Shown piece after piece: positions 1 to 7,313 of a stretch of 64,000 bases of DNA. The translations under genes were made by a program, and so were the position numbers. This DNA is from Tubulanus polymorphus (lineage: Eukaryota; Animalia; Nemertea): the NCBI RefSeq assembly GCF_964204645.1, contig NW_027437431.1, positions 62,001 through 126,000 of the forward strand, in the 5' to 3' direction. Position 1 is the stretch's first letter. Each line of letters begins with the position of its first letter. Under the pieces are notes generated by a model. The model searched no databases. It was not told the origin of the DNA and saw nothing but the letters and a program-made list of their open reading frames with translations.

Positions 1-59
1 GTTAATGAAACTAGGTCGGAAAGATAACAAATTATTATTCAATATATCCTAAAGCTTCT

Positions 60-109
60 ACGAGGTTGGTCACGCGCTCGCTACGCTCGCCAGCGTGACA
101 CAACCTCGT
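60..109. other. Hairpin: 16-bp stem with 1-nt bulge, loop GCTCGCTACGCTCGCCA; candidate origin/Rep-binding element (each copy)
   Basis: ACGAGGTTG(60-68)/CAACCTCGT(101-109) and GTCACGC(69-75)/GCGTGAC(93-99) are exact reverse complements. Confidence 0.75.
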
Positions 110-501
110 GGACGCTCCAAAGATAATGAGTATGTGCTTGATAATGAGTGAATTAATTGGGAACCCTATAGCGGGTAAAAGGTAAGAAGTAGAAATTATA
201 GGGTTAGGGGTTATCATTATACTCGGATGCCCACAGCCCGTGGTGGTCTGTGACAGTGGAGGTTAGTTAAAGTTCGAGGCGTGTGACTAGTCGGGGGGAA
301 TAACATAGGCGGCTACGCCGCGATAGTTAGTCGGCAAGGTCGGCTGCGCCTCCGGCGGTACAGATTACATCTGAGTGTATTAGTCTACCAACGGAAGCCC
401 AAACCCTAAATAATATTAGTCGGAAAAATCTGAGTTAGAGGGTCGCAACCGGTTCAAACAATTTAACATCTCATACAGGTGACTCGTACTTTTAGTATCA
501 A

Positions 502-1584
502 ATGCCATCGTTGAAACGGAGGCGAAACGGATTTACATTGCCCGGTTTACCACATTGCGGTCCATTCAACGATATATCCAGTTACAAAAGCGAAGGAATA
601 GACGAAGTGTGCCGTATTCACGACAAAGAGTACGGAGAACTGCAAGAGAAATACGGTAAATGGGCTCCGTACTTCCAGTACAATTCAGCGGATCAGACAT
701 TTTTGGACAGTGCTTCGGGTGTGAACGGTGTAGGTGCGAGACTAACGTCGAGTGTATTCAGAGCAAAACGGGCGTTATTTCCAACAATGGCGGAAGAACC
801 GGCATTAAAAAGATCAAAGAGAACGGCGGAAACGGGGAGCGAAGAAGGGAACGCCCAACAAATGATGACTCACATGACGGAAAAGCCGTCACTACACTAT
901 AAGAGCGTGTTAATACATAGAGGTTACCTAACGTTTACGAATTGGGATCCGGACCAGGCGTACGGAGCATTCGGAAGAAAAGCGAAGATTTACTGTTCGG
1001 GAATGAGAACGTTTAACTTCGGATTAAAAGAAAGAGAAGGATGGAGAAGATTTCCAGCCAGCATGGATACCATAGGGATGTGGGATCAATTCAAAGTGAC
1101 TTCGGGTAAAATAACGTTATACCCCATAGCGAGCGAAAGCGCGGTAAGCTCTGATTCGAACGCGTTCCAAGATCCGATAGTATGGTTAAAGACGGCAGCC
1201 GATTGGGACTTGAAAGTGAAAGACTCGGCCGCCAATACTCACCAGGGATCGCCGTACGCCGATATAAATTTATTAACTCAAAAGCAAAGCTACAGGCAAT
1301 ACGAATTAGGTCGGGGATGCGTTAGCATGGGATTACCCATGTCGACCATAAGAACCGAAATACAAGACACGAGTGACCCGACAGACGTTACCAGATCGGT
1401 GAATATCGGGGATAACTCGGCGTGGTTAGACGGAGCGTACCGCGATCATTGGCAATCAGCCGCGCTCATTATGCAAATGTTAGTGTACAACGATTCGATA
1501 CACGCGGATTTAAACACGCCCCATACAGAAATTATCGTTCCAGCGGAAGTGGAGTTTACGATGATTCATAGAAACAGAGTATAA
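502..1584 (+). CDS. cap: Capsid protein (VP1-like) with N-terminal parvovirus-type phospholipase A2 domain, copy 1
   Basis: LPGLPHCGPFN (Ca-binding loop), DEVCRIHDKEY (catalytic HD), PYFQYNSADQTF and VFRAKR follow the parvoviral VP1u PLA2 pattern. WDQFKVTSGKITLYP resembles a CRESS jelly-roll strand motif. Basic NLS-like KRRR and KRSKR. Confidence 0.88.
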   Translation: MPSLKRRRNGFTLPGLPHCGPFNDISSYKSEGIDEVCRIHDKEYGELQEKYGKWAPYFQYNSADQTFLDSASGVNGVGARLTSSVFRAKRALFPTMAEEPALKRSKRTAETGSEEGNAQQMMTHMTEKPSLHYKSVLIHRGYLTFTNWDPDQAYGAFGRKAKIYCSGMRTFNFGLKEREGWRRFPASMDTIGMWDQFKVTSGKITLYPIASESAVSSDSNAFQDPIVWLKTAADWDLKVKDSAANTHQGSPYADINLLTQKQSYRQYELGRGCVSMGLPMSTIRTEIQDTSDPTDVTRSVNIGDNSAWLDGAYRDHWQSAALIMQMLVYNDSIHADLNTPHTEIIVPAEVEFTMIHRNRV

Positions 1585-1585
1585 T

Positions 1586-1894
1586 ATGATAATAACTTTC
1601 CTATTCTTGGCATCCGGTTTCCTACACGAGTACAAGTGGCACGTATATACTAAACGTATCATGAGTAGAACGCAACGATTCATGAAAATAAGAGACGAAG
1701 TGGCGAACGAGTGGGTCATCAAACACGACGTCAACGAAAATCGGGTACTAAGGGAACAACACATTACAGAAGTAGCGAAAAGGATATTCTACTACCGGGA
1801 AAAACAATGGGAACTAAGTCGAGAAACTGGTCGTTCACAACCGACAATCGAGCAGAAGTCTGCCTCGAAAGTCAAATCGGAACGTCAACAGTAA
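1586..1894 (+). CDS. Small ORF overlapping the 5' end of rep in another frame (102 aa, or 77 aa from ATG 1661); hypothetical accessory protein, present in all 19 copies
   Basis: Starts 1 nt after the cap stop, fills the cap-rep gap and is charged with a helical-looking sequence. No homology recognised. Confidence 0.45.
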   Translation: MIITFLFLASGFLHEYKWHVYTKRIMSRTQRFMKIRDEVANEWVIKHDVNENRVLREQHITEVAKRIFYYREKQWELSRETGRSQPTIEQKSASKVKSERQQ

Positions 1895-3210
1895 CCGTAC
1901 ACATAGGTCCGCAAGAAGATCCGGACGGTTACGCGCACGGAGTAATAATAACGTTAGCCAAAGGTACGCAACGACCGTTGAAACAGAGCGAAAACGCGAT
2001 TAGACAACTGTTACACTCGCTAGGCATTAGATTAGTTAACGACTACATCAAACCGACGGAAAAATTAGGCGCCTACATTCAATACATGTACAAAGAAGCC
2101 GACAAAATACCGGAAGAATTACGAGGTCACTTGGAGGTGAAAAACTCGAAAACGAACGACGACTTTTTCGGCCAAAAGATAAACGCGTTATACGCGGAAT
2201 ACCAACAAAGACCGGGACTAGCCGATTGGACGGCGAGAATAGTGAAGGAGTTCGGTTACAACGTACCCGAACTGAAAGTGAAAAGATCGTTTAAAAATTG
2301 GCCGGTAAGGGTAAAAGATATTACGAGAAACGCGGGTGACTTTGCGTTGAAAATGACGGACATAACAGAGCCGAAATTGACGCCGGAAATGGGAGTAGAA
2401 ATTATAACGAAATGCCTGGATAACGTTCAATCGGCGATGTGGGATGGTAAACATATAAATAAACGTGACCTGCTGGTAATATTGGTGAACGCGGCGATCG
2501 AGGGAGGTACGAGTAAAATCAGAAACGCGCCTCATATAATATTTTACGGAGATGCCGGGTCTGGTAAATCGATGTTGGCTAAATTATTGTTCCCGGATTC
2601 GATTACGAGCCAAATGCCGACGGATTCGGAAGGCGTAGGAGCGTGCGAGATGGGAGGAGGACAACGTATATTCAAAGTCGACGACGCCAGCGACGCTTTT
2701 TGGCACAACTCGGGGTTGTTGTCGATGATACTCGCGATGTACCAGTCCACCTGGGAGGCAAAAGTACATTCTAGTAAACAAAGTAACCCGCCGTGTATGA
2801 CGGTAATTACGACGAATTGTAAGAATCCGTTAGAGAAGTTCGCCTCTACAGTAGCTTTGGAAGCTGTGGAAAGGAGATTCTTGTCGGTGTATTTCAAAGG
2901 TAAAGCAGATTTGGGAAACGTAGTTTACGACATTACGCCGGGCGTATGCGAAGAAATATTAGAAATAATAGTTAACGAAATTAGACAAGGTAGATATCTG
3001 GACAACCAAGTCCACTTGGACGACTGGGAAACGGATGATGACGTGGTGATACCGTTCGAAAAAGAAAGAAACTTCATCGAAGCGTACCACGTAGGTCACA
3101 TGTCGGACGCGATGCATCAGAATATGGAGGAAAGGTTAAAACGTAAACGTAAAGAAGAAGACGATACGAATGAAACTCTTAAGTTCGCTAAACGCGGGGA
3201 AATCCTGTAG
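1807..3210 (+). CDS. rep: Replication initiator Rep/NS1-like protein (HUH endonuclease + SF3 helicase), 467 aa from first ATG, copy 1
   Basis: Motif I SRNWSFTTDN, motif II-like GYAHGV, motif III YIQYMYKE, Walker A GDAGSGKS, Walker B IFKVDD, motif C VITTN, Arg finger RRF, C-terminal KRKRK. The ORF track starts at GTG 1711; the first ATG (1807, ACAATGG) lies just before motif I. Confidence 0.92.
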   Translation: MGTKSRNWSFTTDNRAEVCLESQIGTSTVTVHIGPQEDPDGYAHGVIITLAKGTQRPLKQSENAIRQLLHSLGIRLVNDYIKPTEKLGAYIQYMYKEADKIPEELRGHLEVKNSKTNDDFFGQKINALYAEYQQRPGLADWTARIVKEFGYNVPELKVKRSFKNWPVRVKDITRNAGDFALKMTDITEPKLTPEMGVEIITKCLDNVQSAMWDGKHINKRDLLVILVNAAIEGGTSKIRNAPHIIFYGDAGSGKSMLAKLLFPDSITSQMPTDSEGVGACEMGGGQRIFKVDDASDAFWHNSGLLSMILAMYQSTWEAKVHSSKQSNPPCMTVITTNCKNPLEKFASTVALEAVERRFLSVYFKGKADLGNVVYDITPGVCEEILEIIVNEIRQGRYLDNQVHLDDWETDDDVVIPFEKERNFIEAYHVGHMSDAMHQNMEERLKRKRKEEDDTNETLKFAKRGEIL

Positions 3211-3221
3211 TTGGCAATGTA

Positions 3222-3227
3222 AATAAA
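3222..3227 (+). terminator. Putative polyadenylation signal AATAAA downstream of rep (each copy)
   Basis: AATAAA begins 12 nt after the rep TAG; a T/GT-rich tract follows at 3301-3311. Confidence 0.55.
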
Positions 3228-3267
3228 TCTATAAATAGAATTCTATAAATTTCTCAATTCGTTACTA

Positions 3268-3400
3268 CCAGTGGACCCGCAGACCCGCGGACCCACTGGC
3301 TGTTCGTTTTTCATGGTCTACCCCCCCTTATATATATAATAAGGAAAGAGAAGGAGGGTCCGCGGGTCCGCGGGTCTGCGGTATTCTCTAAACCGAGAAT
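3268..3400. promoter_or_regulatory. Candidate replication origin/promoter: inverted 8-bp iteron triplets flanking a C7 + TATATATA palindrome (each copy)
   Basis: GGACCCGC-AGACCCGC-GGACCC (3273-3294) faces GGGTCCGC-GGGTCCGC-GGGTCTGC (3356-3379). Perfect 18-bp IR at 3277-3294/3364-3381. CCTTAT/ATAAGG at 3326-3344. Confidence 0.6.
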
Positions 3401-3907
3401 CGAAAAGTTAATGAAACTAGGTCGGAAAGATAACAAATTATTATTCAATATATCCTAAAGCTTCTACGAGGTTGGTCACGCGCTCGCTACGCTCGCCAGC
3501 GTGACACAACCTCGTGGACGCTCCAAAGATAATGAGTATGTGCTTGATAATGAGTGAATTAATTGGGAACCCTATAGCGGGTAAAAGGTAAGAAGTAGAA
3601 ATTATAGGGTTAGGGGTTATCATTATACTCGGATGCCCACAGCCCGTGGTGGTCTGTGACAGTGGAGGTTAGTTAAAGTTCGAGGCGTGTGACTAGTCGG
3701 GGGGAATAACATAGGCGGCTACGCCGCGATAGTTAGTCGGCAAGGTCGGCTGCGCCTCCGGCGGTACAGATTACATCTGAGTGTATTAGTCTACCAACGG
3801 AAGCCCAAACCCTAAATAATATTAGTCGGAAAAATCTGAGTTAGAGGGTCGCAACCGGTTCAAACAATTTAACATCTCATACAGGTGACTCGTACTTTTA
3901 GTATCAA

Positions 3908-4990
3908 ATGCCATCGTTGAAACGGAGGCGAAACGGATTTACATTGCCCGGTTTACCACATTGCGGTCCATTCAACGATATATCCAGTTACAAAAGCGAA
4001 GGAATAGACGAAGTGTGCCGTATTCACGACAAAGAGTACGGAGAACTGCAAGAGAAATACGGTAAATGGGCTCCGTACTTCCAGTACAATTCAGCGGATC
4101 AGACATTTTTGGACAGTGCTTCGGGTGTGAACGGTGTAGGTGCGAGACTAACGTCGAGTGTATTCAGAGCAAAACGGGCGTTATTTCCAACAATGGCGGA
4201 AGAACCGGCATTAAAAAGATCAAAGAGAACGGCGGAAACGGGGAGCGAAGAAGGGAACGCCCAACAAATGATGACTCACATGACGGAAAAGCCGTCACTA
4301 CACTATAAGAGCGTGTTAATACATAGAGGTTACCTAACGTTTACGAATTGGGATCCGGACCAGGCGTACGGAGCATTCGGAAGAAAAGCGAAGATTTACT
4401 GTTCGGGAATGAGAACGTTTAACTTCGGATTAAAAGAAAGAGAAGGATGGAGAAGATTTCCAGCCAGCATGGATACCATAGGGATGTGGGATCAATTCAA
4501 AGTGACTTCGGGTAAAATAACGTTATACCCCATAGCGAGCGAAAGCGCGGTAAGCTCTGATTCGAACGCGTTCCAAGATCCGATAGTATGGTTAAAGACG
4601 GCAGCCGATTGGGACTTGAAAGTGAAAGACTCGGCCGCCAATACTCACCAGGGATCGCCGTACGCCGATATAAATTTATTAACTCAAAAGCAAAGCTACA
4701 GGCAATACGAATTAGGTCGGGGATGCGTTAGCATGGGATTACCCATGTCGACCATAAGAACCGAAATACAAGACACGAGTGACCCGACAGACGTTACCAG
4801 ATCGGTGAATATCGGGGATAACTCGGCGTGGTTAGACGGAGCGTACCGCGATCATTGGCAATCAGCCGCGCTCATTATGCAAATGTTAGTGTACAACGAT
4901 TCGATACACGCGGATTTAAACACGCCCCATACAGAAATTATCGTTCCAGCGGAAGTGGAGTTTACGATGATTCATAGAAACAGAGTATAA
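3908..4990 (+). CDS. cap: PLA2-capsid protein, copy 2
   Basis: Same protein as copy 1. Confidence 0.88.
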   Translation: MPSLKRRRNGFTLPGLPHCGPFNDISSYKSEGIDEVCRIHDKEYGELQEKYGKWAPYFQYNSADQTFLDSASGVNGVGARLTSSVFRAKRALFPTMAEEPALKRSKRTAETGSEEGNAQQMMTHMTEKPSLHYKSVLIHRGYLTFTNWDPDQAYGAFGRKAKIYCSGMRTFNFGLKEREGWRRFPASMDTIGMWDQFKVTSGKITLYPIASESAVSSDSNAFQDPIVWLKTAADWDLKVKDSAANTHQGSPYADINLLTQKQSYRQYELGRGCVSMGLPMSTIRTEIQDTSDPTDVTRSVNIGDNSAWLDGAYRDHWQSAALIMQMLVYNDSIHADLNTPHTEIIVPAEVEFTMIHRNRV

Positions 4991-5212
4991 TATGATAATA
5001 ACTTTCCTATTCTTGGCATCCGGTTTCCTACACGAGTACAAGTGGCACGTATATACTAAACGTATCATGAGTAGAACGCAACGATTCATGAAAATAAGAG
5101 ACGAAGTGGCGAACGAGTGGGTCATCAAACACGACGTCAACGAAAATCGGGTACTAAGGGAACAACACATTACAGAAGTAGCGAAAAGGATATTCTACTA
5201 CCGGGAAAAACA

Positions 5213-6616
5213 ATGGGAACTAAGTCGAGAAACTGGTCGTTCACAACCGACAATCGAGCAGAAGTCTGCCTCGAAAGTCAAATCGGAACGTCAACAGTAA
5301 CCGTACACATAGGTCCGCAAGAAGATCCGGACGGTTACGCGCACGGAGTAATAATAACGTTAGCCAAAGGTACGCAACGACCGTTGAAACAGAGCGAAAA
5401 CGCGATTAGACAACTGTTACACTCGCTAGGCATTAGATTAGTTAACGACTACATCAAACCGACGGAAAAATTAGGCGCCTACATTCAATACATGTACAAA
5501 GAAGCCGACAAAATACCGGAAGAATTACGAGGTCACTTGGAGGTGAAAAACTCGAAAACGAACGACGACTTTTTCGGCCAAAAGATAAACGCGTTATACG
5601 CGGAATACCAACAAAGACCGGGACTAGCCGATTGGACGGCGAGAATAGTGAAGGAGTTCGGTTACAACGTACCCGAACTGAAAGTGAAAAGATCGTTTAA
5701 AAATTGGCCGGTAAGGGTAAAAGATATTACGAGAAACGCGGGTGACTTTGCGTTGAAAATGACGGACATAACAGAGCCGAAATTGACGCCGGAAATGGGA
5801 GTAGAAATTATAACGAAATGCCTGGATAACGTTCAATCGGCGATGTGGGATGGTAAACATATAAATAAACGTGACCTGCTGGTAATATTGGTGAACGCGG
5901 CGATCGAGGGAGGTACGAGTAAAATCAGAAACGCGCCTCATATAATATTTTACGGAGATGCCGGGTCTGGTAAATCGATGTTGGCTAAATTATTGTTCCC
6001 GGATTCGATTACGAGCCAAATGCCGACGGATTCGGAAGGCGTAGGAGCGTGCGAGATGGGAGGAGGACAACGTATATTCAAAGTCGACGACGCCAGCGAC
6101 GCTTTTTGGCACAACTCGGGGTTGTTGTCGATGATACTCGCGATGTACCAGTCCACCTGGGAGGCAAAAGTACATTCTAGTAAACAAAGTAACCCGCCGT
6201 GTATGACGGTAATTACGACGAATTGTAAGAATCCGTTAGAGAAGTTCGCCTCTACAGTAGCTTTGGAAGCTGTGGAAAGGAGATTCTTGTCGGTGTATTT
6301 CAAAGGTAAAGCAGATTTGGGAAACGTAGTTTACGACATTACGCCGGGCGTATGCGAAGAAATATTAGAAATAATAGTTAACGAAATTAGACAAGGTAGA
6401 TATCTGGACAACCAAGTCCACTTGGACGACTGGGAAACGGATGATGACGTGGTGATACCGTTCGAAAAAGAAAGAAACTTCATCGAAGCGTACCACGTAG
6501 GTCACATGTCGGACGCGATGCATCAGAATATGGAGGAAAGGTTAAAACGTAAACGTAAAGAAGAAGACGATACGAATGAAACTCTTAAGTTCGCTAAACG
6601 CGGGGAAATCCTGTAG
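5213..6616 (+). CDS. rep: Rep (HUH + SF3 helicase), copy 2
   Basis: Same protein as copy 1. Confidence 0.9.
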   Translation: MGTKSRNWSFTTDNRAEVCLESQIGTSTVTVHIGPQEDPDGYAHGVIITLAKGTQRPLKQSENAIRQLLHSLGIRLVNDYIKPTEKLGAYIQYMYKEADKIPEELRGHLEVKNSKTNDDFFGQKINALYAEYQQRPGLADWTARIVKEFGYNVPELKVKRSFKNWPVRVKDITRNAGDFALKMTDITEPKLTPEMGVEIITKCLDNVQSAMWDGKHINKRDLLVILVNAAIEGGTSKIRNAPHIIFYGDAGSGKSMLAKLLFPDSITSQMPTDSEGVGACEMGGGQRIFKVDDASDAFWHNSGLLSMILAMYQSTWEAKVHSSKQSNPPCMTVITTNCKNPLEKFASTVALEAVERRFLSVYFKGKADLGNVVYDITPGVCEEILEIIVNEIRQGRYLDNQVHLDDWETDDDVVIPFEKERNFIEAYHVGHMSDAMHQNMEERLKRKRKEEDDTNETLKFAKRGEIL

Positions 6617-7313
6617 TTGGCAATGTAAATAAATCTATAAATAGAATTCTATAAATTTCTCAATTCGTTACTACCAGTGGACCCGCAGACCCGCGGACCC
6701 ACTGGCTGTTCGTTTTTCATGGTCTACCCCCCCTTATATATATAATAAGGAAAGAGAAGGAGGGTCCGCGGGTCCGCGGGTCTGCGGTATTCTCTAAACC
6801 GAGAATCGAAAAGTTAATGAAACTAGGTCGGAAAGATAACAAATTATTATTCAATATATCCTAAAGCTTCTACGAGGTTGGTCACGCGCTCGCTACGCTC
6901 GCCAGCGTGACACAACCTCGTGGACGCTCCAAAGATAATGAGTATGTGCTTGATAATGAGTGAATTAATTGGGAACCCTATAGCGGGTAAAAGGTAAGAA
7001 GTAGAAATTATAGGGTTAGGGGTTATCATTATACTCGGATGCCCACAGCCCGTGGTGGTCTGTGACAGTGGAGGTTAGTTAAAGTTCGAGGCGTGTGACT
7101 AGTCGGGGGGAATAACATAGGCGGCTACGCCGCGATAGTTAGTCGGCAAGGTCGGCTGCGCCTCCGGCGGTACAGATTACATCTGAGTGTATTAGTCTAC
7201 CAACGGAAGCCCAAACCCTAAATAATATTAGTCGGAAAAATCTGAGTTAGAGGGTCGCAACCGGTTCAAACAATTTAACATCTCATACAGGTGACTCGTA
7301 CTTTTAGTATCAA

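What the first reader, a model, noticed from the sequence alone, without database searches (positions are those of the whole stretch)
502..3210. Chimeric virus architecture: parvovirus-type PLA2 on a CRESS-sized capsid with a CRESS-like Rep in a circular 3.4-kb unisense genome
Seen: cap then rep on the same strand. The capsid N-terminus matches the parvoviral VP1u PLA2 pattern, but the remainder is only ~265 aa and contains WDQFKVTSGKITLYP (1081-1125). Rep begins with SRNWSFTTDN. Known: parvoviral major capsid proteins are usually much longer and their genomes are linear with terminal hairpins; circovirus-type capsids are ~230-270 aa with an (F/Y)xxY(R/K)IxxVKVxFxP strand; CRESS Rep motif I is typically WxFTxNN. 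Inference: a lineage bridging Parvoviridae and Cressdnaviricota, possibly an undescribed family. Parvo/circo hybrids have been reported from metagenomes, so novelty needs a search.
Basis: partly seen in the sequence, partly recalled or inferred. Interest (0 to 1): 0.88.

Follow-up and report, generated by a model that had tools for sequence, protein, structure and literature searches.

The report
New parvo-circo mosaic DNA virus lineage
The window is 19 head-to-tail copies of a 3.4-kb, likely circular virus genome whose capsid gene starts with a phospholipase domain and whose replication protein belongs to an unnamed family that groups with none of the sampled parvo-, papilloma- or circovirus-like proteins, so it likely marks an undescribed, probably animal-infecting branch of small DNA viruses.

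Summary
The window is 18 full copies and one partial copy of a 3,406-nt unit: cap (360 aa, PLA2 domain E 2e-11), a small overlapping ORF and Rep, all on one strand. Rep has 48 distant relatives (best 37%). None of the 26 looked up is named as viral, and one is a tunicate gene. Metagenomic relatives keep the cap-then-Rep order (18 of 22 loci), so the layout is a lineage trait, not a mis-join. Rep is a mosaic: nuclease and helicase core are closest in sequence to circovirus-like Reps, but the predicted helicase has the extra helical part of papillomavirus E1 and parvovirus NS1. Trees isolate the family and leave its sister unresolved. Relatives end in long hairpins seen in two inverted forms, as in parvoviruses. 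The jelly-roll is only weakly supported (model pLDDT 31). 'Bridge' is not shown: the PLA2 is of a Cys type also found in adintoviruses, relatives have 530-aa capsids, and Oomyviridae already pair PLA2 with a circovirus-like Rep. Verdict: likely an undescribed family-level lineage.

The parts
1..3406 (+). One genome unit (3,406 nt), repeated head-to-tail 18 times plus a partial copy across the window; read as a circular genome
   Evidence: junction bridged by contigs of two samples
502..1584 (+). Capsid gene, long form (VP1-like, 360 aa): basic N-terminus, PLA2, predicted jelly-roll core
   Evidence: core related to the capsids of relatives, pairwise E 6e-5 and 0.002
529..768 (+). PLA2 domain (aa 10-89); His40-Asp41 at 619-624, Tyr44, Asp64 and a Cys-bearing calcium loop are present
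   Evidence: PF08398 E 2.4e-11; alignment to parvoviral VP1; residues read
787..1584 (+). Predicted short capsid form (VP2-like, 265 aa) from an ATG in strong context, followed by a short basic patch
   Evidence: ATG contexts, (weak at 502, strong at 787; Kozak rule recalled); inference
1081..1125 (+). Strand resembling beta-D of circovirus-type capsids
   Evidence: profile match to an 8-sequence circovirus-type capsid set, prob 16, E 1.6e-3, 0 of 20 shuffles; not significant against a 29-sequence set
1661..1894 (+). Small ORF (77 aa) overlapping the Rep start in another frame; possible accessory protein
   Evidence: similarly placed ORFs in L008, L011, L014, but in a different relative frame and without sequence similarity
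1807..3210 (+). Rep (467 aa): HUH-type nuclease, four-helix linker, SF3 helicase with an extra helical subdomain, acidic/basic tail
   Evidence: (pLDDT 81.8)
1825..2094 (+). Nuclease motifs: I at 1825-1842, II His at 1936-1938, III Tyr-x-x-Lys at 2083-2094
   Evidence: conserved in 18-22 of 24 family members; in register with circovirus-like Reps
2548..2877 (+). SF3 motifs: Walker A 2548-2571, Walker B Asp-Asp 2680-2685, motif C 2809-2817, arginine finger 2872-2877
   Evidence: conserved in 20-24 of 24 members
3222..3227 (+). AATAAA just after the Rep stop; likely polyadenylation signal
   Evidence: inference
3268..3381 (.). Hairpin A: inverted arrays of 8-nt GC-rich repeats around a 61-nt A/T-rich core; candidate origin
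   Evidence: -30.3 kcal/mol against -15.7 +/- 2.8 for shuffles, 0 of 200, and the strongest 110-nt fold in the unit
3459..3522 (.). Hairpin B, second stem-loop in the non-coding region
   Evidence: -21.5 against -10.8 +/- 2.1, 0 of 200 shuffles

Best explanation
This is likely the genome of a small single-stranded DNA virus of an undescribed, probably invertebrate-infecting lineage, captured as a rolling-circle concatemer of a likely circular 3,406-nt molecule. Rep is predicted to bind the 8-nt repeats on hairpin A, nick with its motif III tyrosine and unwind with a ring-forming SF3 helicase, while host polymerase copies the template. The capsid gene would give, by leaky scanning, a major 265-aa jelly-roll protein and a minor 360-aa form whose PLA2 would breach the endosome membrane during entry, as parvoviral VP1 does. 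Shown: ORFs, PLA2 domain, Rep motifs, hairpins, conserved gene order, a distinct Rep family. Inferred: single-strandedness, virion, host, nick site, leaky scanning, jelly-roll fold. In relatives the hairpin after Rep occurs in two inverted forms, so the family likely also resolves hairpin ends in the parvoviral manner.
For: Tandem unit with only sporadic differences, including one nonsense change in 1 of 19 cap copies. Junction bridged in two samples; depths about 1,980, 330 and 10, the last two from one sample. PLA2 with catalytic residues. 48 Rep relatives that keep all HUH and SF3 motifs. Rep model matches HUH-SF3 replicases. Cap lies upstream of Rep on the same strand in 18 of 22 related loci, with PLA2 in 7 of 22. 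Animal link: a Styela clava RefSeq gene is a full-length relative, E 3e-51; degenerate copies, one near a DDE-transposase zinc finger, look endogenous. Hairpin right after Rep in the window, in L014 and in the L005 type.
Against: The capsid model failed (pLDDT 31.5) and its fold searches gave nothing significant (best E 0.04, best Z 3.9), so the jelly-roll rests on weak profile and language-model leads. No NANTATTAC-like nonamer sits at a hairpin apex (motif recalled), so the nick site is unknown. The first His of motif II is Tyr in the window and His in only 9 of 24 members. The 22 loci come from five related data sets and amount to two lineages. The host of the window is not known. Head-to-tail concatemers can also come from circular forms of a linear parvovirus (PMC11575299, passages).
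Confidence: 0.7

Rival explanations
1. It is a very divergent linear, hairpin-ended virus that replicates like a parvovirus, and what was amplified is a circular episome or joined form in which hairpins A and B are the two ends.
For: Relatives carry a hairpin of about 270 nt after Rep whose mismatch bubble is in one orientation in L003/L004, L005, L009 and inverted in L010, L015, plus a 29-36-nt inverted repeat before cap in 5 loci. AAV2 forms circles and head-to-tail concatemers with a single ITR orientation (PMC11575299, passages). The helicase fold matches AAV2 Rep40 (Z 12.8, rmsd 3.3, 175 aligned) and B19V NS1 (Z 11.0). The VP1/VP2 layout with PLA2 is parvoviral.
Against: No inversion of hairpin A in 18 copies, and no strand-switch joint in 4 runs laid, though contigs drop rare forms. 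The same junction is present in two samples. No long inverted terminal repeat in the window. No Parvo_NS1 or Rep_N match in 24 members, where a control NS1 scores E 9e-124. The nuclease has motif I and a Tyr-x-x-Lys motif III. L005 pairs the first bubble orientation with the loop of the second, which a simple two-state model does not give.
Confidence: 0.15
2. It is an endogenous tandem array or a selfish element in an animal chromosome, amplified by Rep-driven rolling circle, rather than a free virus.
For: Relatives occur as many degenerate copies with flanking non-viral DNA; one relative is annotated as a tunicate gene; two variants are shared by adjacent copies (4+5 and 6+7).
Against: About a 30-fold depth difference between two runs of one sample, no flank junction among the listed loose ends (2 not shown), and several related but different sequences in the same runs. 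Five other contig sets under the same species label hold next to none of it. The copies are 99.98% alike.
Confidence: 0.08
3. It is a member of a group already described, such as Oomyviridae (parvo-like hybrid viruses) or the circular 'parvoviruses' and RepE1 cressviruses of Buck et al. 2024.
For: Oomyviridae pair a PLA2 capsid with a circovirus-like Rep (PMC13426907, PMC12451638, passages). Buck et al. report circular parvovirus-like genomes and cressviruses with E1-like Reps (sections 12 and 13); E1 is the top fold hit here.
Against: Best identity among the top 50 fold hits to viral proteins is 16%. None of 26 Rep hits looked up carries a viral name. Family motifs were not found in the readable Buck supplements (two files cut, three unreadable, not every hit viewed). 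Oomyviridae are linear and predicted to infect stramenopiles. No oomyvirid sequence was in hand for a direct comparison.
Confidence: 0.06
4. The cap-Rep pairing is an amplification or assembly chimera of two unrelated molecules.
For: Multiple-displacement amplification makes chimeras (general knowledge).
Against: One contig spans nearly the whole unit in X1 and a 1,215-nt contig spans the cap-Rep boundary in X2; distant relatives have the same order with homologous capsid cores.
Confidence: 0.01

Closest known systems
Oomyviridae (parvo-like hybrid viruses; Cressdnaviricota, Lineavirales)
   Same: PLA2-bearing capsid paired with a Rep related to circovirus-like Reps (PMC13426907, PMC12451638; passages seen).
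   Different: They are linear and predicted to infect stramenopiles; this unit reads as circular, has animal-linked relatives, and its Rep family returns no named viral protein. Not compared sequence to sequence.
Parvoviridae (Parvovirinae, Densovirinae; small-capsid hamaparvoviruses)
   Same: VP1-type N-terminal PLA2 with a downstream second start, one-strand gene layout, small ORF overlapping the replicase start, helicase fold with helical subdomain, flip/flop-like hairpins in relatives.
   Different: No Parvo_NS1, Rep_N or Parvo_coat match; capsid gene precedes Rep; motif I present, Walker B Asp-Asp rather than Glu-Glu (PMC9896142 passage); head-to-tail unit. Densovirus and hamaparvovirus sequences were not in my reference set.
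Circoviridae and other circovirus-like CRESS viruses
   Same: Small circular genome; nuclease motifs I-III and helicase motifs with arginine finger align in register (prob 34 and 96); small capsid core with a similar beta-D strand.
   Different: PLA2; no long arginine-rich capsid arm; no apex nonamer; Rep 467 aa with an extra helical helicase part (PCV2 Rep aligns over only about 123 residues against 175-183 for E1 and Rep40); the family scores lower to them (61) than the three reference groups score to each other (75-97).
Papillomavirus E1 / polyomavirus large T; RepE1 cressviruses of Buck et al. 2024
   Same: Top fold match of the helicase (E1 Z 13.3, rmsd 4.2, 183 aligned; SV40 LT Z 10.4); inverted repeats around an A/T-rich core recall their origins (recalled).
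   Different: Catalytic nuclease residues are kept here; sequence profile similarity to E1 is lower than to CRESS Reps; Z differences under 1 between E1 and Rep40 are ties.
Adintovirus PLA2X
   Same: Same PLA2 family with Cys in the calcium loop and before the His-Asp pair (Buck supplement rows; PMC8502044 passage).
   Different: Adintoviruses are midsize linear dsDNA viruses with a separate PLA2X gene; here the domain is fused to the capsid gene.

Membership tests
Parvoviridae | Linear ssDNA genome with terminal hairpins | tested here: inconclusive
   Unit is head-to-tail with no inversion, but AAV2 also yields such concatemers and relatives show hairpins in two orientations
Parvoviridae | NS1 recognisable by family profiles (Parvo_NS1, Rep_N) | tested here: not met
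   0 of 24 members at E<=0.1; control L269 E 9e-124 and 3e-78; nuclease profile against Parvovirinae prob 0.4
Parvoviridae | PLA2 in a VP1-unique N-terminus (most Parvovirinae and Densovirinae) | tested here: met
Parvoviridae | Replicase gene upstream of the capsid gene in one-strand genomes (recalled) | tested here: not met
   cap directly precedes Rep in the window and in 18 of 22 related loci
Parvoviridae | Parvoviral jelly-roll capsid with long loops | tested here: inconclusive
   No Parvo_coat match; model unusable; only partial VP references
Cressdnaviricota (circovirus-like) | Circular genome | tested here: met
   Head-to-tail array and bridged junction in two samples; circularity of the packaged form not shown
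Cressdnaviricota (circovirus-like) | Single-stranded packaged DNA | not testable with these tools
   Assemblies do not show strandedness
Cressdnaviricota (circovirus-like) | Rep with HUH motifs I-III, Walker A, B, motif C and arginine finger (PMC5923481 passage) | tested here: met
   motif II has only one His in the window
Cressdnaviricota (circovirus-like) | Nonamer at the apex of an origin stem-loop (recalled NANTATTAC) | tested here: not met
   16 matches with at most 1 mismatch on both strands, none at the apex of hairpin A or B
Cressdnaviricota (circovirus-like) | Rep nests among classified CRESS Reps in phylogeny | tested here: inconclusive
   Family lies outside the 25 circovirus-like Reps sampled; other CRESS orders not sampled; sister unresolved
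Oomyviridae | PLA2-containing capsid plus circovirus-related Rep | tested here: met
Oomyviridae | Linear genome | tested here: inconclusive
   Window reads as circular; relatives may be linear
Oomyviridae | Rep groups with oomyvirid Reps in Arfiviricetes | not tested
   No oomyvirid sequence was obtained; indirect only: no viral name among 26 of 48 hits

The most novel reading that the evidence does not exclude
The family is a living intermediate between CRESS viruses and the parvovirus/papillomavirus line: an active circovirus-type nuclease on an E1/NS1-type helicase, a parvovirus-style PLA2 capsid pair on a minimal jelly-roll, and genomes that exist both as circles and as hairpin-ended linear DNA across invertebrate hosts. 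It would merit its own order or class.
Probability: 0.2. Interest if true: 0.92.

Novelty: new variant of a known kind. Interest (0 to 1): 0.7.

Why it matters
The Rep family is further from parvovirus, papillomavirus and circovirus-like replicases than these are from each other, is missed by Pfam and by word-based searches, and has endogenous-looking copies in animal-linked DNA. It would add a deep branch to the small DNA viruses of animals. It offers a test case for how hairpin-ended linear genomes and PLA2-assisted entry arose among circular Rep-encoding viruses, and a search profile for viruses and endogenous elements that are now annotated as hypothetical proteins.

Tried and rejected
Word-based protein searches with cap and Rep found nothing; the full HMMER search did. 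IMG/VR scans with Rep, cap, the Rep alignment and the hairpin A pattern found no relative. Plasmid tblastn: no match. No whole genome is held for the window. The capsid alignment search returned only the family already seen, 7 proteins. The capsid model was unusable; its searches listed mostly small jelly-roll capsids but nothing significant, which I count as a hint only. The Rep structural searches were filled by the helicase, so the nuclease fold was barely tested against solved structures. The stretch before Walker A shows no sequence-profile match to any reference group, so the E1/NS1-like subdomain rests on the predicted fold. Trees: 77 rows quick (family opposite papilloma+parvo, SH-aLRT 89) and 29 rows careful (family with Parvovirinae, 64/12; family+E1 not rejected, p-AU 0.26) disagree. 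Rows left out: P0004 and L286 (Walker A pattern not found), fragments, references above the identity cut-offs. A pattern meant for further helicases returned mostly giant-virus loci and was not used. The small ORF shows no similarity to the like-placed ORFs of relatives. No RNA holder is listed. Run X5 holds only two 151-nt pieces and is not used. Four look-ups in earlier findings returned nothing.
Full report
1. What is in the window. The window is one 3,406-nt unit repeated head-to-tail, 18 full copies and a 2,691-nt partial copy. Copies differ by at least 9 substitutions and one inserted base; the changes are scattered and include one nonsense change in 1 of 19 cap copies, which fits amplification or sequencing error. 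Two variants are shared by neighbouring copies. The unit is held almost whole by runs of two samples from one study. A 3,381-nt contig of X1 crosses the whole non-coding region, and contigs of the second sample bridge it too. X1 may be the window's own source. The array therefore most likely comes from a circular template; whether the circle is the packaged form is not shown.

2. Genes. All lie on the + strand: cap 502-1584 (360 aa), a 77-aa ORF 1661-1894, and Rep 1807-3210 (467 aa from the first ATG). Cap aa 10-89 match the PLA2 family PF08398 (E 2.4e-11) and parvoviral VP1 N-termini (best E 1.3e-12), with His40-Asp41, Tyr44 and Asp64 in place. The ATG at 502 has a weak context and the in-frame ATG at 787 a strong one (rule recalled), which suggests a VP1/VP2 pair by leaky scanning. 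AATAAA follows the Rep stop.

3. The Rep family. Word-based searches failed, but HMMER over 1.84 billion representatives found 48 relatives, best 37% identity. I looked up 26 of the 48: none has a viral name, two clusters carry 'hypothetical protein', and one is a Styela clava RefSeq gene. In 24 aligned members the nuclease motifs (W-x-F-T, His of motif II, Tyr-x-x-Lys) are kept in 18-22 rows and the helicase motifs in 20-24. No member matches Parvo_NS1, Rep_N or Viral_Rep in Pfam at E<=0.1, while a control NS1 does at E 9e-124.

4. What Rep resembles. The model (pLDDT 81.8) shows a nuclease domain, a four-helix linker and an SF3 helicase. Among BFVD viral models, E1, parvoviral NS1 and CRESS Reps rank together at 10-16% identity. 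Against solved structures the helicase aligns over residues of about 192-401 with papillomavirus E1 (Z 13.3, 183 aligned), AAV2 Rep40 (12.8, 175), B19V NS1 (11.0), SV40 large T (10.4) and D5-type helicases, but only over 241-373 with PCV2 Rep (Z 9.3, 123 aligned). It thus has the helical subdomain that circovirus Rep lacks. Sequence profiles point the other way. I fetched reference sets by short recalled motifs; their labels rest on motif and genome size, and only one parvovirus row was confirmed by Pfam. The nuclease aligns end to end with circovirus-like Reps (prob 34, E 4e-4, 0 of 20 shuffles) and not with Parvovirinae or E1; the helicase core scores prob 96 to CRESS, 70 to E1 and 47 to NS1. 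The CRESS set is the most diverse of the three, which favours it. The reference groups score 75-97 with each other and the family core at best 61. Both trees give the family as one group on a very long stem (20 of 20 rows, SH-aLRT 99; 9 of 9 rows, 100/100) and disagree on its sister. Densoviruses, hamaparvoviruses, polyomaviruses and most CRESS orders were not sampled.

5. The capsid. The ESM Atlas places aa 120-360 nearest to Cressdnaviricota capsid clusters (0.95), with circo-, smaco-, gyro- and IHHNV-capsid families as minority labels. The named strand aligns with one of two circovirus-type capsid sets (prob 16, E 1.6e-3, 0 of 20 shuffles) and not significantly with the other or with partial parvoviral VPs. 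The predicted structure failed (pLDDT 31.5) and its searches gave no significant match. A single jelly-roll is likely but unproven.

6. Relatives show that the layout is inherited. A metagenome scan returned 22 loci at 26-35% Rep identity. They come from five related data sets and form two lineages. A capsid core lies upstream of Rep on the same strand in 18 of 22 (three start inside Rep, one is rearranged), and PLA2 is found in 7 of 22. Their capsids are 533-537 aa, one lineage lacks PLA2, and the cores are weakly homologous to the window's (E 6e-5, 0.002). Frameshifted copies, non-viral flanks and a transposase-type zinc finger suggest endogenous elements in a eukaryote.

7. Origin and mechanism. 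No nonamer of the common CRESS type sits on a hairpin. Hairpin A (3268-3381) has inverted 8-nt repeats around an A/T-rich core and is the strongest fold in the unit; hairpin B follows (0 of 200 shuffles each). A hairpin just after Rep is also present in both related lineages. In one of them it is about 270 nt long and occurs in two inverted forms (4 loci against 2, among the 6 in which the apex was found), with a 29-36-nt inverted repeat before cap in 5 loci. Two hairpin orientations are the classic sign of rolling-hairpin replication, and AAV2 can also make circles and head-to-tail concatemers (PMC11575299, passages). One locus does not fit a simple two-state model. The window shows no inversion. 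I conclude that Rep most likely binds and nicks at hairpin A and drives rolling-circle copying here, and that the family may move between circular and hairpin-ended forms.

8. Comparison with print. Oomyviridae already combine a PLA2 capsid with a circovirus-related Rep but are linear and linked to stramenopiles (PMC13426907, PMC12451638, 10.64898/2026.04.22.720165; passages). Buck et al. describe circular parvovirus-like genomes over 5 kb and cressviruses with E1-like Reps (10.1101/2024.03.25.586562; passages and sections 12-13). Family motifs were not found in their supplements as held (PMC11071296; six files searched, two cut, three more unreadable, not all hits viewed), so an unseen match is possible. 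Adintovirus PLA2X shares the Cys-bearing loop (PMC8502044 passage; supplement rows), so the donor of the PLA2 need not be a parvovirus. Small parvoviral capsids exist (PMC11945456, PMC12115719; passages). The current realm framework was read in part (PMC13595969), and motif definitions in passages (PMC5923481, PMC9896142). Nine literature searches listed no paper describing this family; subscription journals and ICTV proposal files are not covered.

9. Verdict. A real virus-like genome of an undescribed family-level lineage, probably of invertebrates. It works like a HUH-SF3 single-stranded DNA virus with parvovirus-style entry. It fails key membership tests for Parvoviridae and is not placed in any CRESS family by the tests I could run. 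The bridging claim is open rather than shown. Novelty: new variant of a known kind; interest 0.7.

Noticed in passing
window 1-6812, runs X1, X2, X4: Contigs that match only short stretches (8 differences in 62 nt, 13 in 80 nt, 11 in 96 nt) and then diverge show related viruses in the same samples, at depths of 17 to 430.
   Followed up: no
L005 2602-2875; L009 3656-3836; L010 2517-2870; L015 3111-3321: Long hairpin after Rep with its bubble in two inverted orientations; in L005 it is followed directly by a 5'-truncated PLA2 capsid gene.
   Followed up: yes
L014 4178-5779 (also L007, L013): A second lineage has a 533-aa capsid with a long low-complexity N-terminus and no PLA2, so the domain was gained or lost within the family.
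   Followed up: partly
L014 7683-7800: 44-bp-arm hairpin with 20-nt tandem repeats just after Rep, the same design as hairpin A of the window.
   Followed up: partly
L001, L006, L010, L016: Rearranged copies: duplicated Rep pieces and capsid fragments behind the hairpin, as in integration junctions.
   Followed up: no
L020 8255-8671: Flank encodes a DDE-transposase-type zinc finger (PF13842, E 2e-7), pointing to eukaryotic host DNA.
   Followed up: partly
window 3418-3831: A TAGTCGG-like word occurs 3 times exactly and twice more with a change in the non-coding region and not in the coding part; possible second set of binding sites.
   Followed up: partly
window 1-3406: CpG observed/expected is 1.54, i.e. 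no CpG depletion; a weak hint against a vertebrate host.
   Followed up: no
P0012, P0014, P0015 clusters: Family members lie on contigs of 17 to 175 kb, likely further endogenous copies.
   Followed up: no
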